Of a stretch of 64,000 nucleotides of DNA, positions 14,295-61,989 are shown one piece after another. Position numbers and translations under genes: made by a program. The notes below the pieces were generated by a model. That model had not been told where the DNA came from. It searched no databases and saw only the letters and a list, made by a program, of their open reading frames with translations. Positions within the stretch are counted from its first letter, which is position 1. The number at the start of each line of letters is the position of its first letter. Origin of the DNA: Patescibacteria group bacterium (lineage in GTDB: Bacteria; Patescibacteriota; Microgenomatia; UBA1400; PJMF01); assembly GCA_040879165.1 (NCBI GenBank), contig JBBDKV010000017.1, positions 23,739-87,738 on the forward strand. The letters are read 5' to 3'.

Positions 14295-16040
14295 ATGAAA
14301 AAAGGCAGTTCTGCCAACGTATGCACTATGTTGGGTCAACCAGGACTGTCTTTTTATATGAGAATAAGAAAAACACTTACTAGCCTCAAGCCAAGAAAAT
14401 CTGGTCACCCCAAGCAGAATCGGTACATTCTATATGCCCGTAAGTCTACTACCTCAGAAGACCGTCAAGTTGCTTCGATTGAGTCCCAGATCGAAGTGAT
14501 GAAAGAGGTAGCTCGTGAGCATGATTTGGAAGTTTCAGAGGTATTGAGTGAAGCAGGTTCAGGCTTCAAGATAGGTAGACAAGCGTTCAATGCCATGATC
14601 GAAAAGATCGAAAGCGGTGAAGCTGATGGCATCATTGTCTGGAAGCTCTCACGCTTATCTCGTAACCCTGATGATGCGGGCAAAATCATGGGCTTACTGC
14701 AACGAGGTGAAATCAAGCACATTCGCACCGCAGACCGCAACTGGTATCCAGAAGACAACGTGATGATGATGTATGTTGAGTTTGGTATGACCAACCAGTT
14801 TAGTCGTGATCTGAGTTCAGACACTCGCCGAGGATTAGTCAAAAAAGCTGAGCGTGGTTGGTTGCCGAACGCCATTCTCCCACTTGGCTATATGCACAGC
14901 CCATACAAAAAGTTAGGTGATGAAGAAATTATCATTGATAAAAGCCGTTTTGACTTGATTCAAGAGGGTTTGAAGCTGGTAGCTTCTGGACAGAAAACAC
15001 CTGTTGAAGCTCATGGCTATTTAGTTACTCAAGGTGTTGTGGGAAAAAGAAGTGAAGCATTACCTAAAAGCACTTGGTACAAGATGTTAGTTGAACCACT
15101 ATACGCAGGGACTTTTGAGTATCCAATAGGTAGTGGTCAGTTTTATGACTCCAAAGCACCCAGAGCCATAGAACCGACTGAGTACGATGCCATTCAAGTT
15201 GTTTTAGGTAGAAAAGATAAGCCTCGACCCAAGACTCACTTTTTGCCTTACACGGGTTTGATGAAGTGCGGTGAGTGTGGTTGCTCCATTACTGCTGAAA
15301 AGAAGCGGAAAGTGCAGAAAAATGGTAACGTGCATCACTATATCTACTATCACTGTACCAAGAAAAAAGGCGAGTGTGGTCAGCCGTGTACGCCTGTTGA
15401 TACACTTGAGAAGCAATATAAGTCCATTTTGAAACGTATCAAAATCCCCTTAGCCTTTCACGAATGGGCTATTGATGAGATCAAATATGACCAAGAAAAA
15501 GTCATCAGGGATCGTGACACCAGCCTACAACGAACTCGAACAAACTACGATGACTGCCTGAGTGAGATTGATAACTTGGTAAAGAAATACCTTGAGGGGA
15601 AAGTGCCAGAAGACTACTATGATCGCAACCTTGCCAAGCTCAATAAAAACAAAAAGACATTGGCGAAAATCTTGGAGGGTATAGACAAAGGTGTCGATGA
15701 AAACTTGGAAAAAATCGATAAAGACCTAGATTTTGCCGTAACAGCCAGAAGACGCTTCAACCAAGGCAACGACTCCAAACGTCGAGAGATCATTTCCTAT
15801 TTAGGCTCGAACCTCATCCTCAAAGACCATTCACTCGGCATTGAGCTGAGAAAACCGCTGGAATTGGTGGCAGAAATTGCAGAAGAAGTCAATGCTGTTG
15901 CAGAAAAGTTCGAACCTCTAGAAAATGCTGATAATTCGGCACAATTTAAGTTGTATTTGTCTGAAAATCCTGCAATGGGTGGTATACCGGACTTGAACCG
16001 GCGACCTCCGCTGCCACAGAGCGGCGCTCTAACCAACTGA
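14295..16040 (+). CDS. Large serine recombinase (resolvase domain + recombinase domain + zinc ribbon)
   Basis: YARKSTTSEDRQVASIESQ carries the catalytic Ser. GIIVWKLSRLSRN is also present. The CGECGC...YYHCTKKK zinc ribbon fits this family, as does the 581-aa length. The 3' end overlaps tRNA-His. Confidence 0.85.
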   Translation: MKKGSSANVCTMLGQPGLSFYMRIRKTLTSLKPRKSGHPKQNRYILYARKSTTSEDRQVASIESQIEVMKEVAREHDLEVSEVLSEAGSGFKIGRQAFNAMIEKIESGEADGIIVWKLSRLSRNPDDAGKIMGLLQRGEIKHIRTADRNWYPEDNVMMMYVEFGMTNQFSRDLSSDTRRGLVKKAERGWLPNAILPLGYMHSPYKKLGDEEIIIDKSRFDLIQEGLKLVASGQKTPVEAHGYLVTQGVVGKRSEALPKSTWYKMLVEPLYAGTFEYPIGSGQFYDSKAPRAIEPTEYDAIQVVLGRKDKPRPKTHFLPYTGLMKCGECGCSITAEKKRKVQKNGNVHHYIYYHCTKKKGECGQPCTPVDTLEKQYKSILKRIKIPLAFHEWAIDEIKYDQEKVIRDRDTSLQRTRTNYDDCLSEIDNLVKKYLEGKVPEDYYDRNLAKLNKNKKTLAKILEGIDKGVDENLEKIDKDLDFAVTARRRFNQGNDSKRREIISYLGSNLILKDHSLGIELRKPLELVAEIAEEVNAVAEKFEPLENADNSAQFKLYLSENPAMGGIPDLNRRPPLPQSGALTN

Positions 16041-16052
16041 GCTAATACCACC
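15977..16052 (-). tRNA. tRNA-His (GTG)
   Basis: Manual cloverleaf. G-1 plus acceptor GTGGTAT/ATACCAC with C73. D-arm GCTCAGTTGGTTAGAGC. Anticodon loop CTGTGGC. T-arm GCCGG-TTCAAGT-CCGGT. Confidence 0.85.
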
Positions 16053-28249: not shown

Positions 28250-29305
28250 TTAAAAATAATTATTCACCGCAAAATGATACTGATCTAAAAACAACCTTTT
28301 TAGATGATACATATTATTAGTTTCATAAAAAATTATGAGCGCTTGCTTATATTCGTTTTCATTTATGCTTCTATATGAAAGTGGAAAGTGGTCATATGCT
28401 AAAAGTACGGCATTTGAAAGCATTCTGGCTGTTCGTTTATTGCCATCAGCAAATGGTTGAATATAAGTCATTAGAGCAGAGACAATCAGAGCCTTTTCAA
28501 GAGGATGAGCTGTCTTATTGACCAAATTAATCATCTTCTTAACCGCCTCTTTTAGCTCCCAAGCATGTGACAATGGTTTGTATGTGGTGCCAGTTATCCC
28601 CACTGCCTGTTTTCTAATACCACTTGTTATTGGCAAGTTTTTGGTTAACACACCATGAAGTTCCAGTACGTCCTTGGTTTGAAGTTTCTTAAAGCTCGTT
28701 CGATGCTCAATGAGTGTTTTACATGCATCTTTGTGATTTAAAATCATGTCTGCTTCTTCTCTGCTTTTACCTTTTGCCTCAATGCCTTGTTTAATCAGGC
28801 TCTCTGTTTCAAGCAAGCTATAGGTATTTCCTTCAATTTTCGAAGATTTCCAAGAAAGCTCAATCACATAACGCTCTAGCTCTCTCTCAAGAATAGTGGG
28901 GTCAAGTTTTTTCGTAGATTTGTCAAAAGAACGAAATGTTTTGTCCAAAGCACTTTGCTCTGGACTTTCTAGTAATCCTGGAAGCAATTCGAAAACTCCA
29001 GCATCAAACACGGTTTTAGCTAGCTTTCTATTATCAGGCTCTATAGAAAAATATTGCTTGAGATCAACATATGCAAGAAGTGGGTGTGTCGAAGCTGTAT
29101 TATATGCTGTACTTGGACCACTACCAATAGAAATGATGAGTCCTTTTTTAACCAAGTATTTGAGATCTCTTGCGAGGGTGGCTTTGGAAGATTGAAAAGC
29201 CTCCGGTAGCCTGGCTGAAAGCCTTTCTCTAGAAATACTCTTGGTCTTGGCAATAGTATTTACTATTTCTTTCTGCCTAGTGTTCAGTTTTATCGTCTCA
29301 TTCAT
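28250..29305 (-). CDS. Fic/DOC family protein with an N-terminal wHTH and a degenerate Fic motif
   Basis: The motif region reads QPFADGNKRTARML, against the canonical HPFx(D/E)GNGRxxR. The catalytic His is replaced by Gln, and the second Gly by Lys. Confidence 0.7.
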   Translation of the reverse strand: MNETIKLNTRQKEIVNTIAKTKSISRERLSARLPEAFQSSKATLARDLKYLVKKGLIISIGSGPSTAYNTASTHPLLAYVDLKQYFSIEPDNRKLAKTVFDAGVFELLPGLLESPEQSALDKTFRSFDKSTKKLDPTILERELERYVIELSWKSSKIEGNTYSLLETESLIKQGIEAKGKSREEADMILNHKDACKTLIEHRTSFKKLQTKDVLELHGVLTKNLPITSGIRKQAVGITGTTYKPLSHAWELKEAVKKMINLVNKTAHPLEKALIVSALMTYIQPFADGNKRTARMLSNAVLLAYDHFPLSYRSINENEYKQALIIFYETNNMYHLKRLFLDQYHFAVNNYF

Positions 29306-39115: not shown

Positions 39116-39211
39116 GTGCAGTATGAGCACAAAACCAGATAAAAAAATTATTCAGCAAAGAGTTGATCCGCGCCACACATTCATACAAAAAAATCCAGCT
39201 TCGCGGGATTT

Positions 39212-39238
39212 TTCTGTATGAGCGGGTGAAGGGAGTCT
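39212..39238 (-). repeat. Partial direct copy of the tRNA-Gly 3' end (about 25 nt with a 3-nt indel)
   Basis: tttttctg(tat)gagcgggtgaagggagtc here versus tttttctgagcgggtgaagggagtc at the genuine tRNA 3' end (39363-39386). Confidence 0.6.
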
Positions 39239-39334
39239 ACGACTCACTCGTTTCACTCGTTCGCATGCATTAGCCAGCCCCGCTGGAGCGGGGTTGGCGG
39301 CAGAACCAAAGAGTTGATCCATGCCACCACCTCA

Positions 39335-39367
39335 GAAAAATATTGACCCTGTCGGGTCATTATTTTT
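39335..39367 (-). terminator. Rho-independent terminator downstream of tRNA-Gly
   Basis: Hairpin gaccc-tgtc-gggtc flanked by an A-run and a T-run, reading on the minus strand. Confidence 0.5.
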
Positions 39368-39370
39368 CTG

Positions 39371-39442
39371 AGCGGGTGAAGGGAGTCGAACCCTCGTCAC
39401 CAGTTTGGAAAACTGGAGCTCTGACCGTTGAGCTACACCCGC
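39371..39442 (-). tRNA. tRNA-Gly (TCC)
   Basis: Acceptor GCGGGTG/CACCCGC. D-arm GCTCAACGGTCAGAGC. Anticodon stem CCAGT/ACTGG with loop TTTCCAA. T-arm GAGGG-TTCGACT-CCCTT. Confidence 0.85.
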
Positions 39443-41061: not shown

Positions 41062-41086
41062 CAATTGAGTTATAATACAGAACGAA

Positions 41087-41153
41087 TCAGGGAGTAGCTC
41101 AGATGGTAGGTGCGCCCCGCTTAGCGGGGTGAGGTCACTACCTGCGACCCTGA
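41087..41153 (+). pseudogene. Degenerate tRNA-Pro-like copy
   Basis: The 5' half (GGGAGTAGCTCAGATGGTAG-GTGCGC) is near-identical to tRNA-Pro, with a 1-nt deletion in the D-stem. The anticodon region is replaced by a tight CCCCGC-TTA-GCGGGG hairpin, with no T-arm or acceptor closure. Confidence 0.4.
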
Positions 41154-41179
41154 TACAATATATTCGGCGTATGTATAGC

Positions 41180-41252
41180 CGGGGAGTAGCTCAGATGGTA
41201 GAGTGCGCGCTTTGGGAGCGTGAGGTCGCAGGTTCGAGCCCTGTCTCCCCGA
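41180..41252 (+). tRNA. tRNA-Pro (TGG)
   Basis: Acceptor CGGGGAG/CTCCCCG. D-arm GCTCAGATGGTAGAGT. Anticodon stem CGCGC/GCGTG with loop TTTGGGA. T-arm GCAGG-TTCGAGC-CCTGT. Confidence 0.85.
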
Positions 41253-41281
41253 CATAGTAAGCAACGCGAGTAAAAAGGGGA

Positions 41282-41323
41282 GAACAAGGCGAGAAGTTTA
41301 CCCCGCAAAGCGGGGAGTCCTGT
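41282..41323 (+). repeat. GAGAAGTTTACCCC + CCCCGC-AAA-GCGGGG hairpin + partial copy of the tRNA-Pro 3' end (cctgtctccccga)
   Basis: A 13-nt exact repeat of tRNA-Pro 41240-41252 lies at 41310-41322. It is preceded by a perfect GC-rich hairpin and a leader also found downstream of tRNA-Gln. Confidence 0.6.
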
Positions 41324-41351
41324 CTCCCCGATAAGTAGTTAGGAGTTCAAA

Positions 41352-41669
41352 ATGAATGAAGAGCCAAAATTTAGTAAATTTGATAGTTTAAGAGATGCGA
41401 TGAAAAGCAAGGCTGAAATGAAAGCAAGCGGCCTTGAAGCCCAAGAAGAATTAAGAGAACAAATAGAAACAGGCGAATATTTCCAAGCCCTAAGACTCCA
41501 GCGTGGCTTATCAACAACAGAACTCGCAAATAAAATTAGAGAAGTTGAAAAAGTTGAAGTAGACCCATATCAAATTACTTTATTAGAAGGTGGCGGACTG
41601 CAAAATAGAAAACTGTATTCAAAACTGTGTAAGTTGTTGGAAAAATACTTTTCAACTCATAATCAGTAG
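41352..41669 (+). CDS. XRE-like HTH protein
   Basis: QALRLQRGLSTTELANKIRE is a Cro/C1-type HTH. 105 aa. Confidence 0.45.
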   Translation: MNEEPKFSKFDSLRDAMKSKAEMKASGLEAQEELREQIETGEYFQALRLQRGLSTTELANKIREVEKVEVDPYQITLLEGGGLQNRKLYSKLCKLLEKYFSTHNQ

Positions 41670-51503: not shown

Positions 51504-53051
51504 ATGCAGTTATTTTTAGCACTTCTACTCATTATTCTATCTTTGACTGGTATTGTTGATGCTAGTTACATAACCTACCAAGATCTTACCAATCAAATTC
51601 CACCATGCAGCGAAGAATTTCAATGTGAAAAAGTCTTAACAAGTGAGTATGCTGCCATCGGACCGATTCCGGTATCCGGCTTGGGTATAGTCTATTACCT
51701 AGCTGCTTTTATCTTGGCAATCTTTCATTACTTACAGCTTGATCTCAAAAAATTGCCACTCCTGCGCCAGCTACCATATCCAGTCCGAGCACTTGACGGC
51801 TTGTTAGTGGTAACGGCCACTGGCTTTCTTTTCTCGATCTACCTGGTCGTATTGATGGCATTCATTATACAAGGCTGGTGTTTATACTGCCTGATTTCTG
51901 CGGGCATTTCCACTGCTCTGTTTATCATCACACAACTGTATAACTGGCTATATAGCTCTCATTCCAGTTTTCCAATCAAGGACTGTTGGTATCGACTGAG
52001 CCATTGGGGCTACAAAACACTCAGTAAACCATTACTTTTTTTACTCAATCCAGACCGCGTTCACCACGCCGTTCTAGCACTTTCTCCCCACCTCTCCGCA
52101 CAAGGAGTGTTCAAACAAAAACTGCGTTGGTTCTATCATTTTAAGCACCCAAGCCTTCAGCAATCGCTGGCAGGCATTCCTTTTGCTAATCCAGTAGGCT
52201 TACCTGCGGGGTATGACTACAATGGCGACCTAACTGACCTGACCCCCGAACTGGGATATGGCTGGCACACCGTGGGAACTGTTACGTTTCAACCTTATCA
52301 GGGAAATAAGCCACCCTTTTATACTCGATTACCTCAGAGTGAGGGCTTAATCGTCAATAAAGGGCTCAAGAATGACGGTGCAAAAGCAATAGCTCAAAAA
52401 TTAGCTGGCAAGCCCTTCAAAATCCCCACTGGCATTAGCATCGCCAGCACCAATACATCATTTCAAAGCACCAAAGAACAAATACTCGATATTCTCCAAA
52501 GCTTTATTATTTTTGAAACTTCCTCCGTACAACACAGCTATTATGAATTAAACATCAGCTGCCCCAATGTTTTTGGCGGCGAGCCATTTACCACGCCTCA
52601 GCGACTAGAGTCTCTCTTATCAGCACTAGACAAACTCTATCTTTCCAAGCCCACTTTTATAAAAATGCCAATTGATCAATCCACCCAAGAAACTGAAGCT
52701 CTACTTAAAACCATTACAAACCACCAGGTTGCAGGTGTCATTTTCGGCAACTTAACCAAGGATAAAAACAATGCAGCAATTACCCAGCAGGAGCGAAAAA
52801 TCTGGGCAAATAGTGCAGGCAACGTCAGTGGCAAAGCAACTTTTGAACGCTCCAATCAATTGCTTTCCCTAGCTAAAAAAACACTGCCTCCTGGAATGGT
52901 CATTATCGGCACTGGAGGAATTTTTACCCCAGCAGATGCAGACAGAAAAATATCACTCGGAGCTGATTTAGTGCAACTGATCACGGGCAGCATCTTTGAA
53001 GGACCGCAGTTAGTCGCTCAGATCAATTTGTCGCTAGCCGCTAAAAACTAG
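51504..53051 (+). CDS. pyrD: VKOR-domain / dihydroorotate dehydrogenase (quinone-type architecture) fusion protein
   Basis: VKOR hallmarks occupy the N-terminal 150 aa: loop Cys pair [11 protein letters not shown] and TM Cxx[18 protein letters not shown] domain follows ([44 protein letters not shown]). Confidence 0.75.
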
Positions 53052-53572
53052 ACTAATGACTCAACAAACGCGCCTAAGAAGTAGGCTACAAATGCAGCAA
53101 TCGCTCCAATGCTCAACATTTCAAAACCATACTTTAACCAATTGCCTGGAGTCACCAATACCCGCAGACTACCCACTAAAAAGAGGGCGCACCCCGTTGC
53201 TAATACTGATAACGGAAACTGCCAAGTTGCGGAAACTTGATTACCAGTAAGTTGAATCACGTATGGCAATAAAGGTAGTGAGCCGGCGAGCATAAAACTC
53301 ACAAAAGTAATGACGCTCGTTTCCATTGAGCGAATTTTTGGTGACATAGTACCAGATTTTTTGAGACGTTCAGCTGAGCGCTCTCCCAGATAATCACCAA
53401 CCGCCATACTCATCGCGTCAGCCACCATGCTAGCAATTCCTAAAATAATGATAACGCGCGCACTCAAACCAGCGCCAACCGCACCAGCCACTACCGCGAA
53501 GGTCGTAATAATACCATCATTAGCACCAAGCACCATGGCCTTGACTTTTTTTGCTGAAAGCAGTTGAAACAT
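53048..53572 (-). CDS. VIT1/CCC1 family iron/manganese transporter
   Basis: [15 protein letters not shown] signature. 174 aa with a multi-TM C-terminus. Confidence 0.7.
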
Positions 53573-53738
53573 GTAATTATACTACCATGTACGCAAGTAA
53601 TTTTTATCATGAAAGTGTCTGCTATACAGAAATTGCTACATTTTCCAGGCACTTCAAAAAATACTGTTTTCTGTGTACAATATCAGTTCTGTATCTCGAG
53701 AAATAGCACATCGCTCTCTCAAGCAAGCAGCCCACATT

Positions 53739-53809
53739 CTGCCCCGTCGTCCAATGGCAGGACAGCGGCCTTTGAAGCCGTTAATCTAGGTTCGAATCCT
53801 AGCGGGGCA
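53739..53809 (+). tRNA. tRNA-Gln (TTG)
   Basis: U1-A72 acceptor TGCCCCG/CGGGGCA. D-arm GTCC-AATGGCA-GGAC. Anticodon stem GCGGC/GCCGT with loop CTTTGAA. T-arm CTAGG-TTCGAAT-CCTAG. Confidence 0.8.
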
Positions 53810-53926
53810 TCATACAGAATAACTGGCTCAAGCCAGTTTTTCTGTATTTGTCCCCAGATAGAGGCGGGGCTGTTGCGCCGTCGAGATGCGCAGCATCCCG
53901 AGTAGTGCTGGGAGCGAAGCGAACAG

Positions 53927-54022
53927 TGAATCCTAGCGGGGCATCAGTGAACGCAGTGAACTGAGATTTCGCGTAGGATGAGAAGTTTACCCCACTATGG
54001 CGGGGAATCCTAGCGGAGCATC
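53927..54022 (+). repeat. Two partial direct copies of the tRNA-Gln 3' end, the second preceded by GAGAAGTTTACCCC + a CCCCAC-TATG-GCGGGG hairpin
   Basis: gaatcctagcggggcatca (53927-53945) and aatcctagcggagcatca (54005-54022) repeat tRNA 53791-53809. The leader gagaagtttacccc (53979-53992) is identical to the one at 41282-41295. Confidence 0.6.
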
Positions 54023-54032
54023 AGATAATAAA

Positions 54033-54058
54033 AACCAGCTTGGACTGGTTTTTTTGTA
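54033..54058 (+). terminator. Rho-independent terminator-like hairpin
   Basis: ccagcttggactgg followed by ttttttt. Confidence 0.5.
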
Positions 54059-54105
54059 TTGGCACATCTGGTAATTGGACTGTAACTTTTGTGTTAGTAT
54101 GAAAT

Positions 54106-54525
54106 ATGGCTTTTTTGTCTGATAAAACGTGGGAAAGACACGCTAATCCTTGGAGTGGCTGGACAAGAGTAGTATCGATGCCACTTCTCATGTTGGGATT
54201 ATACTTTCAAAATATTTGGATACTGATTGGCGTTGTCTTATGGACAATAATAAATCCCATGCTATTTCCAAAACCCAAGAGTACACAAAATTGGATGAGT
54301 AAAGGAGTGCTTGGAGAAAAATTGTATTACAAGGATGGAAAAAAGTTAAAAAATGACTTGCCTTCACTACTTAATTTAGTCAATGTACCTGTGTTTTTAC
54401 TTTTTCTCTACTTTGGATGGCAACAGCAGCTTGCACCAATGATTCTTTCTGGACTACTGACATCGGTTATAAAATTTTGGTTCATTGACAGAATGGTTCT
54501 TTTCTATGACCAACATCACTCATGA
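54106..54525 (+). CDS. Hypothetical small membrane protein (about four TM)
   Basis: 139 aa, hydrophobic segments. Confidence 0.4.
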   Translation: MAFLSDKTWERHANPWSGWTRVVSMPLLMLGLYFQNIWILIGVVLWTIINPMLFPKPKSTQNWMSKGVLGEKLYYKDGKKLKNDLPSLLNLVNVPVFLLFLYFGWQQQLAPMILSGLLTSVIKFWFIDRMVLFYDQHHS

Positions 54526-54607
54526 TCCTGATGCGCATGCACTTACTTCCACCAGGTGCTTGATTTCTCCTGACCAATAGAGGTATCCTTGTGTAGAACT
54601 AAAAAAC

Positions 54608-54925
54608 ATGGAGGCTTTTATGAACCACAAATTAATTGCAATTAGTCTAATTTTTGTTTGTTTTGTTGCCGCCTTCGCTTACTGGGATAGCGTCTTTACT
54701 GTTTTTATGCCAGAAAAGGGAGTAGAGCAAACAGAATCAACTGAGCTGCAAGTTGAAGCCTCGCTCTGTGCTGCTACCCCAGATAGTGAGTGTTGCCTAG
54801 AATCCGAATCAACTGTTCTTGAGAATGGCTACATGCTCGCTGATGCTGGTAATTGCCCTGAAGGACACACCTCAAACCAACTCCGCTGCACAGAAAGCTT
54901 GGTGTGGTGTGAGCCTGCTATATAG
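54608..54925 (+). CDS. Small secreted or membrane-anchored Cys-rich protein
   Basis: An N-terminal hydrophobic signal/anchor. Seven Cys in the C-terminal 55 aa (CAATPDSECCLE...NCPEGH...LRCTESLVWC). Confidence 0.4.
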   Translation: MEAFMNHKLIAISLIFVCFVAAFAYWDSVFTVFMPEKGVEQTESTELQVEASLCAATPDSECCLESESTVLENGYMLADAGNCPEGHTSNQLRCTESLVWCEPAI

Positions 54926-55070
54926 ATTTCAACCAATAGTGGGATAGATCCTTGATACAGGTTGGGAGTTGTAACCAACCCTACATCCTTCTAACAAAGT
55001 GACATATCCAGCTAGCTGGACAGCATGGATTTTGCTAGACTGAGTAAAGTTTTTACTATTTCTGCCCACA

Positions 55071-56372
55071 ATGTCTAATCCTCACCAACAACAGTCGCAA
55101 CATCCAGGTCAAACACAAACAAACCAACATCCAATAGGTCATCATGCGCCCAGACCAGACGCCCCACATCCTCAGCAGCAACATCCATACACCCACAGCA
55201 GTCATACGTATCATGTAACTGAAGAAGTCAATGCAAAAAAAGAATCTGCTTTCTTTGCGTTTTTTGAACACCACCGGGTATTGATTCCCTTGATTGCTTT
55301 ACTCGCTATAGTGGTCAGTATTTTTTTCGCGATGCAGTACTCTCAAACCATAGGCTCTCAGGTGACGCGCTGGCTTGGTTTTACGCCCAATACACAATCC
55401 AGTGAAGTAGGTGTCAATCAAGAGTTTTCATTTCCCGATACGGGCATTATTTTTTCAAGCAATCAACTGACACTAGTGTACTCATCGGTCGATCAAAATA
55501 TTACAGAAGTTTTCAGCCCGTCTTTTACTCAACTGAGTAACCAATCAAGTATTCAGAGCAACCCCACAAAGACTCACTTTTTACTAAGCGATTATCAACT
55601 CAATACACTCGAACTATACGATTCTCAGTCTGGAAATGCGATAAAAATATCAGATCAATTAAAAAACCTCTACACAAATTTTCAAATACTCGACTCACAA
55701 ATCCACCAGCGCGAAGAGGCGATCGTTGCGCTCGCTCTCATTAAAATAGAAGAATTGAATGTACCCATCACACTTCTAGTCGAATACAATGCACAAACCA
55801 AGCAACTCAAAGACGCACGCTTAAATACTGGTGAAAATCCAAAAATAATCTGGATACATCCCACTAATAATGCGGTCTACCTCACTTCTTACATTTCAAA
55901 TACGGTGGAGCTTCTTACCACAGTAGATCAAAGACAGCGTCAAACTAACACCAGACTACCATACACTTTTTTGGGCAAATCATCTCCGCAAGGATTGCAA
56001 ATAGTTGAGGATGGTCAGAATCTTACTATCACCCAGATCTTCAATCCCACCCAAACACAATCCAGCCTGGCTATTGACCAAAGTGCAGGCAAAATACTAG
56101 AAACTATCTGGCATCAAGATGGCAATCGCGTATCAGTATTACTGGAGCAGGGTAGGTCAAAAAAAATCTTGACGTTCTCACTAAGTGGGCAGCTCAATTG
56201 TGAATCTGCTAATCTGGATTTTATTGATTATGTGGTTGCGCAACATACCAATCAAGTAGCACTACTGTTTGAAGAAAATAGAACTCAATTATTAGATCTC
56301 GCTACTTGTCAAAATAATTCTTTATTCTCATATAGTGACCTGCCGATTACTAAACTTCTGGGATGGTATTAG
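55071..56372 (+). CDS. Hypothetical membrane-anchored protein with a His/Gln-rich N-terminal low-complexity region
   Basis: 433 aa. The N-terminal 50 aa are QQSQHPGQTQTNQHPIGHHAPRP..., followed by one TM and an extracytoplasmic domain. Confidence 0.45.
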   Translation: MSNPHQQQSQHPGQTQTNQHPIGHHAPRPDAPHPQQQHPYTHSSHTYHVTEEVNAKKESAFFAFFEHHRVLIPLIALLAIVVSIFFAMQYSQTIGSQVTRWLGFTPNTQSSEVGVNQEFSFPDTGIIFSSNQLTLVYSSVDQNITEVFSPSFTQLSNQSSIQSNPTKTHFLLSDYQLNTLELYDSQSGNAIKISDQLKNLYTNFQILDSQIHQREEAIVALALIKIEELNVPITLLVEYNAQTKQLKDARLNTGENPKIIWIHPTNNAVYLTSYISNTVELLTTVDQRQRQTNTRLPYTFLGKSSPQGLQIVEDGQNLTITQIFNPTQTQSSLAIDQSAGKILETIWHQDGNRVSVLLEQGRSKKILTFSLSGQLNCESANLDFIDYVVAQHTNQVALLFEENRTQLLDLATCQNNSLFSYSDLPITKLLGWY

Positions 56373-56440
56373 TACGTACTGGTGAAACTGTAGAGAAAGT
56401 CGTACTTGCAAAGCAAAATGTATTTTGAAATACTGACTGT

Positions 56441-57394
56441 ATGAATACTGATGATAGTTTGCCGACTGATAGTGATCTAGAGGACAGCTCCTTCCAACCA
56501 CAACACAGTCGAACAACCTTTTTTAAGAAAAAATTGCTACTACTCTTACTGCTGTTTGTCGGAATAGGTGCTGTAGTGGCAGGTTATTCTTGGTATCAAA
56601 ATCAACAACCTACCGCCATTGATGAAACAGTGTTTCAGGATGCTCAAGGAGTAATAGCCACAGTTGGTGAGGAGCAGATTTTCCAATCAGATCTGGAACA
56701 AATAATTCCACTTCTTCCAGCTTCAGAAAATACGCAAGAACAAGGTCTGGAAGTATTGGTTAATCATTCGATTATTTTACAGGCGGCTCAAGAAGAAGGA
56801 GTAATCGGTATTCCTAGCGAATTGTTTAACAAGCCATATAAAAATCAGAGTGCTCGTTTTGAGTTTGTTGATCAAGTTCGGCAAACTATTGAATCCAATT
56901 TTTCAGTTATTCAAGGCTCAGTAGTATCTATTTATTTCTTAAACGAGTCTCCTGGTATCATTGGTTATGAGGCGGGAAGAGAATTTGCTCAACAAAAAAT
57001 TAACGCCATACATCAGCAAGTAACAAATGGTGAAATAACTATGCAACAAGCTGGGCAGATGATAGCAGCAGATGCAGAATTAGAACGAGTTGATTCGGCA
57101 TTTCGCAGCAATGCTTACTTCGAGTTTAGCGCTGGGCCAGATGAAGGAATCGTTATTGACCCGGATCTTGACCCAGCCATTCGAGCGCTTGACCCAGGAG
57201 AAGTAAGCAGTGTGTTGGTAGGTAAGGGCATGGACTTATCTGATTGGTCTCCAACTAGTGATGTCCAAGTAGAAGTGGTAGATGCTATGTTTATGTTTGC
57301 TCAAGTTGATAAAAAGGAAACAAACTTAGAGTATAATTCTTTTGACGAATGGCTCGAAGCCAAGCGAATGGCATATCAAGTAAGTTATGAATAA
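56441..57394 (+). CDS. Hypothetical membrane-anchored protein
   Basis: 317 aa, one N-terminal TM (LLLLLLLFVGIGAVVAG). Overlaps the next ORF by 8 nt. Confidence 0.45.
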   Translation: MNTDDSLPTDSDLEDSSFQPQHSRTTFFKKKLLLLLLLFVGIGAVVAGYSWYQNQQPTAIDETVFQDAQGVIATVGEEQIFQSDLEQIIPLLPASENTQEQGLEVLVNHSIILQAAQEEGVIGIPSELFNKPYKNQSARFEFVDQVRQTIESNFSVIQGSVVSIYFLNESPGIIGYEAGREFAQQKINAIHQQVTNGEITMQQAGQMIAADAELERVDSAFRSNAYFEFSAGPDEGIVIDPDLDPAIRALDPGEVSSVLVGKGMDLSDWSPTSDVQVEVVDAMFMFAQVDKKETNLEYNSFDEWLEAKRMAYQVSYE

Positions 57395-60300
57395 AATTCA
57401 TCGCATAGTACTAGCAGTTTTATTGATATTTTCAGGTTTGTTCCTGAACAATTCAGTTAGTAACGCTGCAGAAACCGCTCCAAATGTGAATGGTCGAGTG
57501 CGCCATGTTGACGGTATTACACCAATAACTAGTTTTGGTAACGCGAATATTTGGCTCGATTGGGAAGTGCTTGATAATTTGCAGGACACCGCAGCGCAGC
57601 GCAAAGAGCAAAATCCAGATGGCAGGCGTTTTGTCCGCACCTCTAGTGATGGTAGCTATACCTTTCCACACTACAATCCAACAGATGGTGAAAATAAAAG
57701 TATTTGGGAAACAGCTTCTGACTCATATACCTCAAAAAATTTGAATGAGCTGCTTGATCTTGCCAGAAATCAGAGTGATCGCTACAAAAGAATGCGGTAT
57801 GAATACCAAGCTTCCCACTGGTATAAATACGGGTGCCACCAAAATTCCCACATGCTTTCAGTTGTCACGCCAAATTCAGTATCAGGTCAAGGCGTTTTTA
57901 TCGCCTCTGATGGTGTGCCTAGCTCCACAAACCACTACACGACTGACCTTCCTCAGAGCTACCAATTTGATATGCCCAATGGCTCAAACAGCTTGGAATT
58001 TAATTTTAAGTGGTTGCCTACAGGGCAAACGCCAGTCTGTCCCGAAACACTGCCAGTACGATGCAACCCTCAAGTTCGAGACGCTGAGGGCAATATCCAA
58101 GCTACCATTTCCTGGAATCATCCTGCATACTCCACAGCAGCCTCAGGTGAAGAAAACGACGTCACTCAGTTTTTAGTTCGAGTTCATAACACAGCACTTA
58201 CCTGGGCAAATGATTTAAATTATCTTGTTGACCCAATGTATTCCGGCGGAGATACCAATCTACTCAATGGCAATAATCGCAATATCATGGTTAGAAGCAA
58301 TCTCACCAGCATTCCACTCTTCGTTACTCCAGGTCAAGAATATAATTGGTCAGTTCAACCTGGCAAAAGAGATTGGCCCGCACCACATGGTAGCCTTTGG
58401 AACAATGCCCCATACCAATCACCAAATAATTGTTTTGGAGTAGCGATACGGTGTAATGAGCCAACTACCGATCCAGACTCAGATTCTGAAGGAGAAACGT
58501 CGCAAGGCGAAATGCACACCCTTTCTTGTGCTAATTACGAAGGCGGTCAATCCAGTGCAATTAATTATCATCACCGCATTAACATCGATGCAGACAGCAC
58601 ATTCCTTGATACTTTTACAACAGGACAATTAGTTTTAGAATTTTCGGCTCCATCAGACAGTCAGTTAGCAGGAGTAATAGATGGTTTCTTCGGCAATCAA
58701 GTACTGTCTCAATCCACAGTAAATGGAAATACGGTAACGCGAGTTTCTCTTATAAACCTAGGACGTGAAGACTTTAAACAATCTTGGAGAGAGTGGTCAG
58801 TTGCTTCAATTCAGATTCCTGACACCCATCAATTTAGCAATGGTCAGACGATCAGCGACCTTGATACTCAATTACTCGCAGCGGGCATTGATTCAGTATT
58901 GCAAAATACTCGAGTAATTTTTCTCAACAATAGTCAAAACTCGGAAGGGGTTTTTGTTCATGCTCGACCATTAGAAATGGCGTGTCAAACATCAACGGGC
59001 GGCGTTCCAGCTGCATGTCCTGATCCAAATAGCTACAGTATTACACTAGACAATCCAACTCAAGTTGTTGATCGTGATAACCCGAATTTTTTGGTGAATT
59101 GGAATAGCTCACCCAGTCAATTATCAGGTGTCACAAACTACGAGGCACTACTTTTTAATAACCAACAAACCAACATTGATCAAGCATATGCGTCTCCGAA
59201 TGCACTTATAAAAAAGACTCCTGATGAATCAACGAAACAGGCATTATTTAGCATTGATGACATTAATGATCTCAATGATCATGAAATTGGCGTAGCAATT
59301 CGTCCTCTGGCTGGCGCACAAACTTGCCCCTGGACAAGAAACACCCTCACATTACAAGAGGAAGTTGATGTGAATTTTAGAGTCAAAGAGCCTGACACAG
59401 CCTGCATACCAACTGACTCACACCAACTGATATCAAACGGCCTACTTGGCAATTCCACAATCAATGGTGAACCAATAGCTGACAATCCAATGACACTAAA
59501 TTTTGACTACAATAGCAACAACAATAGGATTACTACCAATTTTATTAATACCGACTACTCATGCGCCAGCATGTGTAGCCGCACAAATTGCAATCCTTTG
59601 ATTGATTCTGACGAGCAAGAAATTGACATCCTTGTTCACACAGGTCAAATCTACTCAAGTTGGTGGCAGACTAGAGGCGGGCTTGTGTTCGCCCAACAAC
59701 AAATTAGGTCCAATCTTCCATTACTCAGCGAAGTCCTAAATCCACGTTGTAATGATCTAGAAAGCTGTGTTCCATTTATTATTCGCACTGATCGATTTAG
59801 CCCGACGCAAAGAAGAGAAGTCAATCGAACAGCTGGTATTCTTATGACTGATGGAGAGTTGCAAAATACGGCACTTGACGGCTCAAGTGTAAAGGGATGG
59901 GCAACTCAACGCCAACGAAATCAGTATGCAGAGGGTGCAAGCGCCCATATCGAATCTAACTATAGATATTCTGATTTTAGAACCTTGGTCAGTCCTCCTA
60001 ATGCTACAGCAAAAGCTTCCATATCATCTAGTGACATCACTTCACAGCAGGTTTCGCACTGGTCGGGTGAAGTTGAAATTCCAAACCCAATTCAAATTGA
60101 ACCAGGTGGTCAGCATATAGTATTTGTTGACGGTAACTTGTCAATCAACGCAGTTTCAGAAGGTCAAAAAATGATTACTGTGCCAAATGGATCTTTCTTA
60201 GCATTTATTGTCAATGGCAACATTACCTTCAATGGACTAGTTGGAAGTAGTGATTTTGAGAGTGAGGATCCCTTAGTAGAAGGAATATTTATGGCTGAGG

Positions 60301-60539
60301 AGAGCATAGTTATTAATTCTCTAGGAGCAGGTAATGATCTTAAATTCATCGGTGCCGGCAGCTTTATTGGATGGACTAATGTCAGTATGAACCGCAATTA
60401 CAATGACGTTGATAAGCCCGAAGAAGAACAATTCAATGATCTCTACGCTACAGAACTTTTTATACACCGTCCTGATTTGGTCATCAGTACCCCTGAAATT
60501 CTGAGGGAAGCGTCAGTAACTTGGCAAGAAGTCAATTAA
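57387..60539 (+). CDS. Large secreted or cell-surface protein (1050 aa), function unknown
   Basis: An N-terminal signal peptide (IVLAVLLIFSGLFLNNSVSNAAE). Asn/Ser/Thr-rich with many Cys pairs. No recognised catalytic motif. Confidence 0.5.
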   Translation: MNKIHRIVLAVLLIFSGLFLNNSVSNAAETAPNVNGRVRHVDGITPITSFGNANIWLDWEVLDNLQDTAAQRKEQNPDGRRFVRTSSDGSYTFPHYNPTDGENKSIWETASDSYTSKNLNELLDLARNQSDRYKRMRYEYQASHWYKYGCHQNSHMLSVVTPNSVSGQGVFIASDGVPSSTNHYTTDLPQSYQFDMPNGSNSLEFNFKWLPTGQTPVCPETLPVRCNPQVRDAEGNIQATISWNHPAYSTAASGEENDVTQFLVRVHNTALTWANDLNYLVDPMYSGGDTNLLNGNNRNIMVRSNLTSIPLFVTPGQEYNWSVQPGKRDWPAPHGSLWNNAPYQSPNNCFGVAIRCNEPTTDPDSDSEGETSQGEMHTLSCANYEGGQSSAINYHHRINIDADSTFLDTFTTGQLVLEFSAPSDSQLAGVIDGFFGNQVLSQSTVNGNTVTRVSLINLGREDFKQSWREWSVASIQIPDTHQFSNGQTISDLDTQLLAAGIDSVLQNTRVIFLNNSQNSEGVFVHARPLEMACQTSTGGVPAACPDPNSYSITLDNPTQVVDRDNPNFLVNWNSSPSQLSGVTNYEALLFNNQQTNIDQAYASPNALIKKTPDESTKQALFSIDDINDLNDHEIGVAIRPLAGAQTCPWTRNTLTLQEEVDVNFRVKEPDTACIPTDSHQLISNGLLGNSTINGEPIADNPMTLNFDYNSNNNRITTNFINTDYSCASMCSRTNCNPLIDSDEQEIDILVHTGQIYSSWWQTRGGLVFAQQQIRSNLPLLSEVLNPRCNDLESCVPFIIRTDRFSPTQRREVNRTAGILMTDGELQNTALDGSSVKGWATQRQRNQYAEGASAHIESNYRYSDFRTLVSPPNATAKASISSSDITSQQVSHWSGEVEIPNPIQIEPGGQHIVFVDGNLSINAVSEGQKMITVPNGSFLAFIVNGNITFNGLVGSSDFESEDPLVEGIFMAEESIVINSLGAGNDLKFIGAGSFIGWTNVSMNRNYNDVDKPEEEQFNDLYATELFIHRPDLVISTPEILREASVTWQEVN

Positions 60540-60729
60540 CGTATTCTTTTTTTTCAAAACAAGATTGGAAGCATGCTGCTATGCAGAGCATGAGTGGTGG
60601 ATCTATTGCAATAAAATTCCGTGCGCATTTTGACTAAAGATCAAGCTGATTACACATGCAAAAAGAGCGTATATGCAACAAAGATTAAGAAGTAACGCCT
60701 GAGCTAGAATTCGTTGAAGTAACGACAGC

Positions 60730-61989
60730 CTATCTTGCCACAATTCTTAAGATTGCGTCATCTCCCCGCCTGACAGAACCTCGACCATCTCGATTGCTGG
60801 TACCAATATATATCGCGCCATCAGGACCTACCTCCACCACACGCACTCGTCCCACATCGACTTGTGGCATTTGTTCATGAGCAACCACTTGGGTGGGATC
60901 ATCAAGGTCAAAAACTACTCGATATAAGCCCGTGCCACGCAGACCCCCAAACAAAAAACTACCTCTCAGCTCTGGAATCAAATCAGCATCATAAAATGCA
61001 GCCGTAGCTGGCGCTACAGCCGGTGTATAGACTAGCAAACCCGTTTCCATACCTTCACCAGTCTGTTCGTGCGAGATCACTGGCCACCCATAGTTGCTAC
61101 CAGGTTGAATCAAATTAACCTCATCACCACCAGCAGGACCGTCAAAGACGCTTGGTCCATGTTCAGTAGAGTAGAGCTCATTTGTCAGAGGGTGCCATGC
61201 CAAACCTTGGGGATTGCGGTGACCAAAGCTATAGATCTCTGAAGCAGGAAAAGGGTTGTCATCCGGAATACTCCCATCCAAATTGAGTCTAATGATTTTG
61301 CCTGCCAGAGTATCCATATTTTGTGCTAAGTCACGTTCTAGAGCATCACCAACTGTTATAAACAGCTTTTCATCTGGACTGATCGCCAACTCACAGCCTG
61401 CATGATTGCGAGCAGAGGGCAGTTTATCAATGATTTCGTCAACAACTTCCACACTTGAGCCTTGGTCACGCGCAGCAATCACTTTATTGAAAATACCAGT
61501 TGGAGATTGATAGCCATAGCAAATATAGAGCAACTGATTTTGTTCATAATCAGGATGCGCGACCATGCCCATCATGCCAATTTCGCCATTACTCTGAACT
61601 TCATCCACCACCAGTAGTGGCGACTCTGTAAGTACACCTGCCACTACCTCACGAACTCTACCCGGTCGTTCAGTAATCAACATTCGCTCCGACCCAGTAA
61701 AAACAATACTCCAAGGAACCTCTAGACCTTCAACAACTGTTTCAATCTCTAAGTCTATATTTTCAGCAGAAATAAATGATTGTCGATAATCCTCAGCGCT
61801 GGTTGCCGCCATCTTGTCCTGATCGTCCTGGGCAGATTTTGACGAAGAGAGCTGTTCAGCCAATCGAGTGCTTCCGGGAATACTCACAGGCTCAGGTCGG
61901 TACAATGCCAAGTAATCAATTAACCAAACACCAAGCACTCCCGCAAGACAAAGCGTGGTACCGATAATGGCTTTTTTTGTGACTGTCAT
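60730..61989 (-). CDS. PQQ-dependent sugar dehydrogenase (soluble glucose/sorbosone dehydrogenase-like beta-propeller), membrane-anchored
   Basis: HRNPQGLAWHP and GSNYGWP motifs typical of the YliI/sGDH family. N-terminal TM. Confidence 0.7.
   Translation of the reverse strand: MTVTKKAIIGTTLCLAGVLGVWLIDYLALYRPEPVSIPGSTRLAEQLSSSKSAQDDQDKMAATSAEDYRQSFISAENIDLEIETVVEGLEVPWSIVFTGSERMLITERPGRVREVVAGVLTESPLLVVDEVQSNGEIGMMGMVAHPDYEQNQLLYICYGYQSPTGIFNKVIAARDQGSSVEVVDEIIDKLPSARNHAGCELAISPDEKLFITVGDALERDLAQNMDTLAGKIIRLNLDGSIPDDNPFPASEIYSFGHRNPQGLAWHPLTNELYSTEHGPSVFDGPAGGDEVNLIQPGSNYGWPVISHEQTGEGMETGLLVYTPAVAPATAAFYDADLIPELRGSFLFGGLRGTGLYRVVFDLDDPTQVVAHEQMPQVDVGRVRVVEVGPDGAIYIGTSNRDGRGSVRRGDDAILRIVAR

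What the first reader, a model, noticed from the sequence alone, without database searches (positions are those of the whole stretch)
53810..54060. Tandem array of two tRNA-Gln 3'-end copies downstream of tRNA-Gln
Two partial copies (19 and 18 nt, one with a G-to-A change) lie 118 and 196 bp after the tRNA. They are separated by GC-hairpin modules and followed by a strong terminator. The array suggests successive integration and excision events at this tRNA.
Basis: seen in the sequence. Interest (0 to 1): 0.6.

Follow-up and report, generated by a model that had tools for sequence, protein, structure and literature searches.

The report
Tiny insertion modules behind tRNA-Gln
The two repeats of the end of the glutamine tRNA gene are real and most likely mark two tiny, gene-less insertions of a structured DNA module family that, in this group of ultra-small (Patescibacteria) bacteria, lands in the T-loop of tRNA genes: a known kind of event in an unusually small, modular form.

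Summary
GAATCCTAGCGGGGCATCA (tRNA-Gln G57 to 3' end plus CA) occurs at 53794 (in the gene), 53928 (exact) and 54005 (G>A at 54017). None is expected by chance, and a second assembly is identical.

It is not a peculiarity of this locus. In the same window tRNA-Gly and tRNA-Pro also carry a downstream copy of their own 3' end starting at G57. In related Patescibacteria genomes so do tRNA-Gly (3 genomes), tRNA-Gln (twice) and tRNA-Arg.

Every one of the 10 copies is preceded by a member of one module family. In the well-preserved relatives its constant part is 83-87% identical behind different tRNAs and has covariation-supported helices. In relatives, 0-2 genes lie between the tRNA and the module.

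An empty tRNA-Gly site in another relative shows that the distal copy keeps the native flank. The window's tRNA-Pro copy keeps the ancestral base (T60) that the working gene has lost.

Best reading: two successive cargo-less insertions (115 and 58 nt), each regenerating the tRNA end and displacing the old one. The site lies at the edge of a ~6.9 kb hypervariable island. Successive integration is therefore supported.

Excision is not shown. The recombinase is unknown. Whether the module acts as a DNA site or as RNA is open.

The parts
53740..53811 (+). tRNA-Gln(UUG), intact. No CCA is encoded; the gene is followed by CA.
   Evidence: ARAGORN; Rfam tRNA 65.7 bits.
53794..53812 (+). Repeat copy 0: G57 to U73 plus CA, inside and at the end of the working tRNA gene. 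Inferred to have been brought in by the latest insertion.
53812..53848 (+). T1: extended palindrome and bidirectional terminator (ATACAGAATAACTGGCT..AGCCAGTTTTTCTGTAT). This is the left end of insert 1. It resembles T2 and the native tRNA-Gly terminator.
   Evidence: I2 94% complementary; D3, I1; terminator-like on both strands.
53849..53927 (+). Module of insert 1 ('type B'), a diverged member of the module family. Motifs: GTCCCCAGATAGAGG, TGTTGCGCCGTCGAG (family motif GTTCTGCCGCCAAG), hairpin TGCGC..GCGCA, GCGAAGCGAAC (family motif CGAAGCGCG). It ends ..AGT just before G57 of copy 1.
   Evidence: Motifs shared with the window tRNA-Gly module and with L139 Gln modules.
53928..53946 (+). Partial copy 1 of the tRNA-Gln 3' end (19/19).
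53947..54004 (+). Insert 2 ('type A', truncated module). It holds tandem CAGTGAAC x2, a strand complementary to copy 2 (UUUCGC 53967-72, UAGGAU 53974-79), GAGAAGTTTA (53980-89) and a CCCC..GGGG hairpin (53990-54005).
   Evidence: fold -23.2 kcal/mol, z -1.9. The 14-mer GAGAAGTTTACCCC occurs only here and behind tRNA-Pro. The same motif plus a covarying hairpin is in L139.
54005..54023 (+). Partial copy 2 (18/19, G>A at 54017). It is the outermost copy and so the oldest displaced end.
54024..54061 (+). T2: terminator hairpin plus T-run, inferred to be the native tRNA-Gln terminator.
   Evidence: By analogy with the empty and filled tRNA-Gly sites.
54062..60729 (.). Hypervariable island between the tRNA-Gln array and the GSDH gene. 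It holds DUF6653 plus four ORFs with no family hit. Gene content is unrelated to that at the same place in relatives. This is context, not shown to be bounded by a repeat.
41254..41331 (+). Sister case behind tRNA-Pro (41180-41253): GGGGAGA/UCUCCCC and T-like stem enclosing GAGAAGTTTA plus the CCCCGCaaaGCGGGG hairpin. It is followed by the partial copy GAGTCCTGTCTCCCCGA (41315-41331), which carries the ancestral T60.
   Evidence: (z -2.96).
39219..39369 (-). Sister case behind tRNA-Gly (39370-39442, minus strand): bidirectional terminator, module (GGTTCTGCCGCCAA, CCCCGCtccaGCGGGG, GGCTAAT, GCGAACGAGTGAA) and partial copy GACTCCCTTCACCCGCTCA (39237-39219). The native-type terminator follows it.
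   Evidence: (z -3.46). Homologous modules at the same site in L131, L132 and L138.

Best explanation
The array is the product of two successive site-specific insertions into the 3' part of the tRNA-Gln gene by members of a family of small modular integrative cassettes found in this Patescibacteria (Paceibacteria/Microgenomates-like) lineage.

Each inserted unit reads, left to right: a replacement tRNA segment (G57 to the 3' end plus about 2 nt), a bidirectional terminator, 0-2 cargo genes, and a conserved structured module of roughly 60-130 nt. Recombination within the 19-nt segment shared with the tRNA gene regenerates a working tRNA. It pushes the previous 3' end downstream, where it now sits directly after the module (an attR-like junction). 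A second insertion repeats this.

In the window both units are cargo-less (115 nt and 58 nt) and their modules are diverged or truncated. Copy 2 plus the terminator T2 is the original gene end.

Shown: the repeats; the module family and its association with every copy; the empty versus filled site at tRNA-Gly; the ancestral base kept in the tRNA-Pro copy; the patchy distribution; the hypervariable island.

Inferred: that a site-specific recombinase acting in trans does this; the direction and order of events; and that the module is the element-side recombination arm, possibly recognised as a folded structure.
For: 1. Each copy starts at T-loop G57 of its own tRNA. This holds in all 10 cases: window Gln x2, Pro, Gly; L131, L132 and L138 Gly; L132 Arg; L139 Gln x2.

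2. Empty versus filled site. In L134/L135, tRNA-Gly is followed directly by GAAGTGACAG..AAATGTA. In L132 the same flank follows the partial copy, not the tRNA, while the tRNA keeps the native upstream leader.

3. The window tRNA-Pro copy has T60, as in the tRNA-Pro genes of L131, L132, L134, L137 and L139. The window's working gene has C60. The copy is therefore the old end and the working end was imported.

4. One module family sits behind different tRNAs. The covariance model built from three copies finds a fourth behind tRNA-Arg (87 bits). It also finds weaker copies in L131 and at the second L139 Gln repeat. The constant part is 83-87% identical for all pairs.

5. Cargo is present in relatives. 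A 105-aa HTH-like ORF lies between tRNA-Arg and its module in L132. Two ORFs lie between Gln copy 1 and copy 2 in L139.

6. Occupancy is patchy: Gly filled in 4 genomes and empty in 1; Gln filled in 2 and empty in 3; Pro filled in 1 and empty in 4 (five loci; L139 belongs to the same genome as L132); Arg filled in 1 and empty in 1.

7. Synteny with L010 and L139 ends at the tRNA-Gln 3' end. With L139 it resumes at GSDH, ~6.9 kb later.

8. Arrays of partial tRNAs from repeated integration, and integrase-less elements that keep attL and attR (CIMEs), are documented elsewhere (10.1101/2020.12.28.424599; PMC5704250).
Against: 1. No recombinase gene lies in or next to any cassette seen. The only recombinases in the window (13149-14264 and 14295-16040) lie 38 kb away, next to tRNA-His.

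2. A classical attP has one fixed core. Here nearly the same module is joined to the 3' ends of Gly, Gln and Arg tRNAs within one genome. A simple integrase model does not explain this.

3. Inserts of 58-150 bp are too small to have integrated as free double-stranded circles. They must be deletion derivatives, or must have moved in some other way.

4. The module shows covariation-supported helices and invariant blocks. It is under selection, and that selection could be for an RNA function rather than for recombination.

5. No circular or excised form, and no strain polymorphism at the Gln locus itself, could be examined.

6. Homology of the window's two Gln modules to the well-conserved relatives' module rests on short motifs. 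The covariance model did not detect them.
Confidence: 0.58

Rival explanations
1. The modules plus partial copies are functional small RNAs or cis-acting RNA structures. They would be tRNA-linked, tRNA-end-mimicking hairpins or minihelices, transcribed with or after the tRNA and kept by selection for an RNA role such as processing signal, decoy or regulator. On this view the duplication is only how they arose.
For: Helices of the module are supported by compensatory changes: 91% of cells paired versus 27-49% in slid controls, and 9 pairs with double changes versus 0-3. Invariant blocks persist at 83-87% identity between genomes whose MFS gene is only 71% identical. In the window, the Gln copy 2 and Pro copies each form the 3' strand of a long hairpin whose 5' strand is tRNA-specific. 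The hairpin after GAGAAGTTT covaries: CCCCGC/GCGGGG, CCCC/GGGG, GCAC/GTGC, CGCG/CGCG. In L131, ATGGGTG pairs with the altered copy end CACCCAT. In L132 no terminator separates tRNA-Gly from the module.
Against: No Rfam family matches. Occupancy is patchy across loci and genomes, which is unlike a housekeeping RNA. The module stays with the distal copy even when genes intervene between it and the tRNA. Terminators separate tRNA and module in most loci. Single-sequence fold z-scores are modest (-1.2 to -3.5; about 0 for L132 and L138). The alignment used for the pair counts was fitted to the model. Structure conservation is equally expected for a recombination site used in folded form.
Confidence: 0.2
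2. The module is an autonomous-in-trans miniature mobile element (MITE/PATE-like or RNA-guided) that homes to the T-loop, between C56 and G57, of any tRNA gene. Its adjoining tRNA 3' end would be flank-derived, as with a guide. That would explain one module with many tRNA ends.
For: The constant module starts with GTTC (like T-loop G53-C56) and ends with ..RGA next to the tRNA-specific part. It therefore looks like an insertion exactly inside a T-loop. In L132 the unit behind tRNA-Arg retains tRNA-Arg positions ~17-52 in front of the module. The same module sits with three different tRNA ends in one genome.
Against: The native upstream leader is attached to the intact tRNA and the native downstream flank to the distal copy. 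A 19-nt duplication therefore accompanies the insertion, which IS200/IS605-type elements do not make. No terminal inverted repeats were seen (sequence inspection). No transposase, TnpB, IscB or Cas gene was seen in the cassettes. No module was found away from a tRNA-end copy.
Confidence: 0.12
3. Local duplication without mobile DNA: replication slippage, unequal crossing-over or gene conversion copied the tRNA end, and the spacers are ordinary intergenic sequence.
For: T1 and T2, and their downstream bases, resemble each other (D3, I1). In the tRNA-Gly locus GGATCAACTCTTTG follows both terminators.
Against: This does not explain the same module behind different tRNAs in several genomes, nor cargo genes inside the units, nor the ancestral T60 in the Pro copy versus C60 in the gene, nor the constant start at G57.
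Confidence: 0.05
4. Chance similarity or assembly artefact.
For: None beyond the short length of the repeats.
Against: There were 0 matches in 100 shuffles. A second assembly is identical. The same architecture is found at 10 sites in 5 genomes.
Confidence: 0.01

Closest known systems
Tandem arrays of partial tRNAs left by repeated integration at tRNA genes (e.g. tycheposons and genomic islands of Prochlorococcus; 10.1101/2020.12.28.424599)
   Same: An intact tRNA lies at one edge of a hypervariable island. Partial copies of the same tRNA separate successive or degenerated elements. Newer arrivals push older ones outward.
   Different: There the elements are kb-sized and many carry a tyrosine recombinase, and the attachment site is about 40 nt. 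Here the units are 58-150 nt (up to 1.4 kb with cargo in relatives) and have no recombinase. Each ends in a conserved structured module that recurs behind different tRNAs.
CIMEs (cis-mobilizable elements) and site-specific accretion (PMC5704250)
   Same: These are elements that have lost their integration genes but keep attL and attR. [quoted passage not shown]
   Different: CIMEs are decayed ICEs or IMEs of kb size in Firmicutes. No conjugative or parent element is known here, and the module is conserved rather than decaying in the relatives.
Integron gene cassettes with attC sites
   Same: Small cassettes of 0-2 promoterless-looking genes are lined up at one landing site. Each ends in a site that is conserved more in structure than in sequence.
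   Different: No IntI-like gene lies next to the landing site. There are no R''/L''/L'/R' boxes or GTTRRRY core. The landing site is a tRNA T-loop and 3' end, and 19 nt are duplicated.
[quoted passage not shown]
   Same: Site-specific islands sit at a tRNA-like gene. A serine recombinase gene does lie against tRNA-His in this window.
   Different: The paper's repeat structure was not read here. No recombinase adjoins the Gln, Gly or Pro arrays.

Membership tests
tRNA-targeting integrative element / genomic island (attL-attR) | Inserted DNA is flanked by direct repeats identical to a 3' segment of the tRNA gene, with an intact tRNA at one end. | tested here: met
   19/19 and 18/19 repeats starting at G57. 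ARAGORN and Rfam call the tRNA intact.
tRNA-targeting integrative element / genomic island (attL-attR) | Comparison with an unoccupied site shows that the distal repeat carries the native downstream flank. | tested here: inconclusive
   Met for the sister tRNA-Gly site (L134 empty versus L132 filled). For tRNA-Gln itself the relatives L010, L007 and L008 are empty, but their downstream flanks are unrelated.
tRNA-targeting integrative element / genomic island (attL-attR) | The element encodes its own integrase next to an att site. | tested here: not met
   The 115- and 58-nt inserts hold no ORF. Cargo ORFs in L132 and L139 give no recombinase hit. The flanking genes are VIT1 and DUF6653.
tRNA-targeting integrative element / genomic island (attL-attR) | Excision to a circle and re-integration. 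| not testable with these tools
   This needs reads or experiments.
CIME (integrase-less element retaining attL and attR) | Bounded by att repeats; lacks integration and transfer genes; related to an autonomous parent element. | tested here: inconclusive
   The first two features are met. No parent element was found: the viral-contig scan for the 19-mer gave 0 hits, and none is present in the loci held.
Integron cassette / attC | IntI gene and attI next to the array; attC with inverse core RYYYAAC and core GTTRRRY. | tested here: not met
   No recombinase lies beside the arrays. Inspection of the module sequences shows no such boxes.
Known tRNA-like or other RNA families (tmRNA, YrlA, T-box and the rest of Rfam 15) | Match to the family covariance model. 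| tested here: not met
   Only the tRNAs themselves reach threshold. There is no credible sub-threshold hit on the modules. ARAGORN finds no tmRNA.
IS200/IS605-type miniature elements (PATEs) or TnpB omega-RNA | Insertion 3' of a short target without target duplication; subterminal hairpins; scaffold followed by a flank-derived guide. | tested here: not met
   A 19-nt duplication is present. No tnpA or tnpB gene was seen. The scaffold-plus-flank layout is only superficially similar.

The most novel reading that the evidence does not exclude
The conserved module together with the adjoining tRNA 3' segment is the working part of a previously undescribed cassette-capture system of Patescibacteria. 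It would be a folded (ssDNA or RNA) recombination or guide element that uses the universally conserved tRNA T-loop as its landing pad. It would automatically pair itself with whichever tRNA end it lands next to. One module family could then seed gene-cassette arrays behind many different tRNAs with a recombinase supplied in trans, making it an integron-like or guide-like system built on tRNA genes.
Probability: 0.18. Interest if true: 0.85.

Novelty: new variant of a known kind. Interest (0 to 1): 0.5.

Why it matters
Patescibacteria (CPR) have tiny genomes, and how they exchange genes is poorly understood. If this reading is right, their tRNA genes carry miniature, modular landing sites that nucleate hypervariable islands. 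One structured module would be reused behind several tRNAs.

That would give a concrete, searchable marker for gene flux in this lineage: the module plus a G57-to-3'-end copy. It would also give a candidate new recombination-site type to test.

For annotation, it warns that short tRNA 3'-end copies and GC hairpins downstream of CPR tRNA genes are neither pseudogenes nor noise.

Tried and rejected
1. Assembly artefact. Rejected: the Logan contig is identical.

2. Phage or viral origin. The 19-mer gives 0 hits in IMG/VR. The 14-mer GAGAAGTTTACCCC gives only chance hits there, none followed by the hairpin and tRNA end.

3. Known RNA family. Rfam at gathering and relaxed thresholds finds only the tRNAs.

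4. 'Copy 1 is a whole tRNA-sized pseudo-tRNA.' TGCGCCGTCG at 53874 lies in the same 134-nt register as the tRNA 5' end. I dropped this idea because the interior is 23% identical (random) and the 10-mer aligns better with the module motif GTTCTGCCGCCAAG.

5. tmRNA-like reading of the tRNA-Gly module (possible tag ORF ending GGCTAA). The frame and peptide are not conserved in the window or in L131. Rejected on sequence inspection.

6. CRISPR repeat or homing-guide reading of GTTTACCCCGC..GCGGGGA. There is no regular spacing, no cas genes, and the copy sits in the native flank. Rejected.

7. Strain comparison through DUF6653 relatives. L140 and L141 have no tRNA nearby. The closest relative of the VKOR-DHODH gene (77% identity, L009) sits on a contig that ends before the tRNA.

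8. Search for further modules in the window by motifs and by the covariance model. None was found outside the three tRNA loci.

9. The genome-contig scan returned only 40%-identical relatives with no tRNA nearby. The metagenome scan for the 19-mer returned two plain tRNA-Gln genes.

Full report
**The observation**

tRNA-Gln(UUG) lies at 53740-53811. The 19-mer GAATCCTAGCGGGGCATCA runs from T-loop G57 through discriminator U73 plus CA. It occurs at 53794 (the gene's own end), at 53928 (19/19) and at 54005 (18/19, G>A at 54017). It occurs nowhere else in the window at up to 3 mismatches, and shuffles give 0 matches.

A palindromic, bidirectional terminator (T1, 53812-53848) follows the tRNA. A second terminator (T2, 54030-54053) follows copy 2. 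The two inserts between the repeats are 115 nt and 58 nt long and hold GC-rich hairpins. A Logan assembly of run SRR27977663 is identical over the whole intergenic region.

**The organism**

The flanking genes are ordinary chromosomal genes: a VKOR-DHODH fusion, VIT1 and DUF6653. Their best relatives are Patescibacteria (Pacebacteria, Woesebacteria, Microgenomates) MAGs. The window's own proteins are recorded from an NCBI 'Patescibacteria group bacterium' contig of 113.6 kb.

**It is systematic, not local**

A BLAST of the intergenic region against the rest of the window hit 41291-41321, just downstream of tRNA-Pro. There the same 14-mer GAGAAGTTTACCCC, a GC hairpin and then a copy of the tRNA-Pro 3' end are found.

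A scan of all six tRNAs shows that Gly, Pro and Gln each have a downstream copy of their own 3' end. Each copy begins at G57. His, Arg and Leu have none.

**Relatives**

Homologues of the MFS gene, which lies between tRNA-Gly and tRNA-Leu/Pro, gave syntenic loci from other species at 64-68% amino-acid identity.

- tRNA-Gly is followed by a copy of its own 3' end in L131, L132 and L138, 125-157 nt downstream.
- In L134/L135 the tRNA-Gly site is empty. The flank that follows the tRNA there (GAAGTGACAG...AAATGTA) is the flank that follows the partial copy in L132. The intact tRNA keeps the native leader.

DNA has therefore been inserted between the tRNA body and its original end, with a 19-nt duplication.

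For tRNA-Gln, L010 (syntenic up to the tRNA), L007 and L008 are empty.

L139 comes from the same genome as L132. Its layout is tRNA-Gln, terminator, module, copy 1, two ORFs (130 and 187 aa), diverged module, copy 2.

In L132, tRNA-Arg is followed by a 105-aa HTH-like ORF, then a module, then a copy of the tRNA-Arg end. That ORF is 35% identical (E = 1e-8) to the window ORF 41352-41669, which follows the tRNA-Pro copy.

**The module**

All ten partial copies are directly preceded by related sequence. Four copies are well conserved: L132 Gly and Arg, L138 Gly, and L139 Gln-1. Their constant part is:

(G)GTTC TGCCGCCAAGCGAAC – AT-rich hairpin – CGAAGCGCGTGGCYAATACCCGNAGGGYR

The tRNA-specific end follows, from GA onward. 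These copies are 83-87% identical in every pairing, whether within one genome or between genomes. By comparison, the MFS gene of L132 versus L138 is 71% identical and the tRNA leader 61%.

A covariance model built from three copies recovered the fourth at 87 bits, and weaker copies in L131 and at L139 Gln-2. On the model-fitted alignment of seven copies:

| Measure | Observed | Slid controls |
|---|---|---|
| Cells paired | 91% | 27-49% |
| Pairs with changes on both sides | 9 | 0-3 |

The double changes are concentrated in the helix GCCAaGCG/CGCgTGGC. The fitted alignment biases these counts toward the structure, so I treat this as good but not conclusive evidence of a conserved fold.

The window's own modules are more diverged:

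- The Gly and Gln-1 modules keep the motifs GTTCTGCCGCC / TGTTGCGCCGTCG and GCGAAC / CGAAGCG, plus a closing helix.
- The Pro and Gln-2 units are short forms. They hold GAGAAGTTTA plus a hairpin, abutting the copy. A tRNA-specific 5' strand pairs with the copy.

The motif GAGAAGTTT plus hairpin recurs in L139 Gln-2 with a different but still perfectly paired stem, GCAC/GTGC.

**Direction of events**

The window's tRNA-Pro copy reads GAGTCC. That is the state of tRNA-Pro in the five relatives' loci examined. The window's working gene reads GAGCCC. The copy is therefore the displaced ancestral end, and the working end arrived with the insert. By the same logic, Gln copy 2 plus T2 is the original end of tRNA-Gln, copy 1 was displaced second, and the present end plus T1 came last.

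**Context**

Synteny with L010 and L139 runs up to VIT1 and tRNA-Gln and breaks at the tRNA's 3' end. With L139 it resumes at the GSDH gene (window 60739-61752). The ~6.9 kb in between (DUF6653 plus four ORFs with no family hit) is unrelated to the ~6.3 kb at the same place in L139. tRNA-Gln therefore anchors a hypervariable island. DUF6653 relatives elsewhere are not next to tRNAs.

**Interpretation**

The facts fit successive site-specific insertion at the tRNA 3' end, as in known partial-tRNA arrays and CIME accretion. The units here are miniature and the right-hand arm is conserved and structured.

Three things do not fit a textbook integrase element:

- No recombinase lies in or beside any unit. 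The only recombinases in the window are a Xer-like tyrosine recombinase at 13149-14264 and a large serine recombinase at 14295-16040 that overlaps tRNA-His.
- The units are extremely small.
- One module is joined to the ends of three different tRNAs in one genome.

These points keep two rivals alive: a functional tRNA-linked RNA, and a T-loop-homing miniature element. They also motivate the more novel reading of an integron-like or guide-like capture system.

**Verdict**

'Excision' is unsupported. The GC-hairpin modules are the interesting part. This is a new variant of a known kind. Interest is 0.5, and confidence in the insertion-cassette reading is about 0.58.

Noticed in passing
window 41088-41153: A 66-nt tRNA-Pro-like pseudo-unit lies between tRNA-Leu and tRNA-Pro. 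Its first 22 nt match the tRNA-Pro 5' end at 21/22. The anticodon arm is replaced by a perfect hairpin with a triloop (CGCCCCGC TTA GCGGGGTG). The acceptor pair is changed on both sides (CAGGG...CCCTG versus CGGGG...CCCCG). In relatives the Leu-Pro spacer is only 24-36 nt.
   Followed up: partly
window 13149-14264 and 14295-16040 (tRNA-His 15977-16051, minus strand): A Xer-like tyrosine recombinase (PF00589, 1e-9) lies next to a 581-aa large serine recombinase (XisF/CcrB-like). The 3' end of the serine recombinase ORF overlaps the 3' end of tRNA-His on the opposite strand. No partial tRNA-His copy is found in the window. This may be an integrated element, together with the C5 DNA methylase at 8188-9183.
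   Followed up: partly
window 41352-41669; L132 17401-17718: A 105-aa HTH-like ORF lies after the tRNA-Pro copy. It is homologous (35% identity, E = 1e-8) to the cargo ORF that sits between tRNA-Arg and its module in L132. A small regulator seems to travel with these units.
   Followed up: partly
L132 17690-17818: The unit behind tRNA-Arg keeps tRNA-Arg positions ~17-52 (anticodon arm 26/27 identical) in front of the module. The element-side site therefore looks like a tRNA 3' part with the module sitting inside its T-loop (GTTC | module | GAGTC).
   Followed up: partly
L138 3075-3094 versus 2846-2918: The partial tRNA-Gly copy ends in ..CACCCGCTCCA (CCA encoded), while the working gene in the same locus ends ..GCTCAG (no CCA). 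The empty-site relative L134 encodes CCA. This fits the copy being the ancestral end.
   Followed up: no
window 54608-60539: Four consecutive ORFs (105, 433, 317 and 1050 aa) have no Pfam or PHROG hit. They lie inside the variable island between tRNA-Gln and GSDH.
   Followed up: partly
window 51504-53051: A fusion of a VKOR domain with quinone-type dihydroorotate dehydrogenase. It is widespread in Patescibacteria: more than 2,000 relatives with both domains.
   Followed up: no
window 53624-53694, 53812-53847, 39190-39215 and 41070-41160: The motif ATACAGAA / TTCTGTAT recurs around tRNA genes. It appears in promoter-proximal regions and as the outer arms of the A-tract/T-tract bidirectional terminators.
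   Followed up: no
window 53564-53905: The 113-aa TTG-start ORF listed across the tRNA-Gln gene and T1 is almost certainly spurious.
   Followed up: no
window 28250-29305: A Fic/DOC family protein (PF02661, 2e-13).
   Followed up: no
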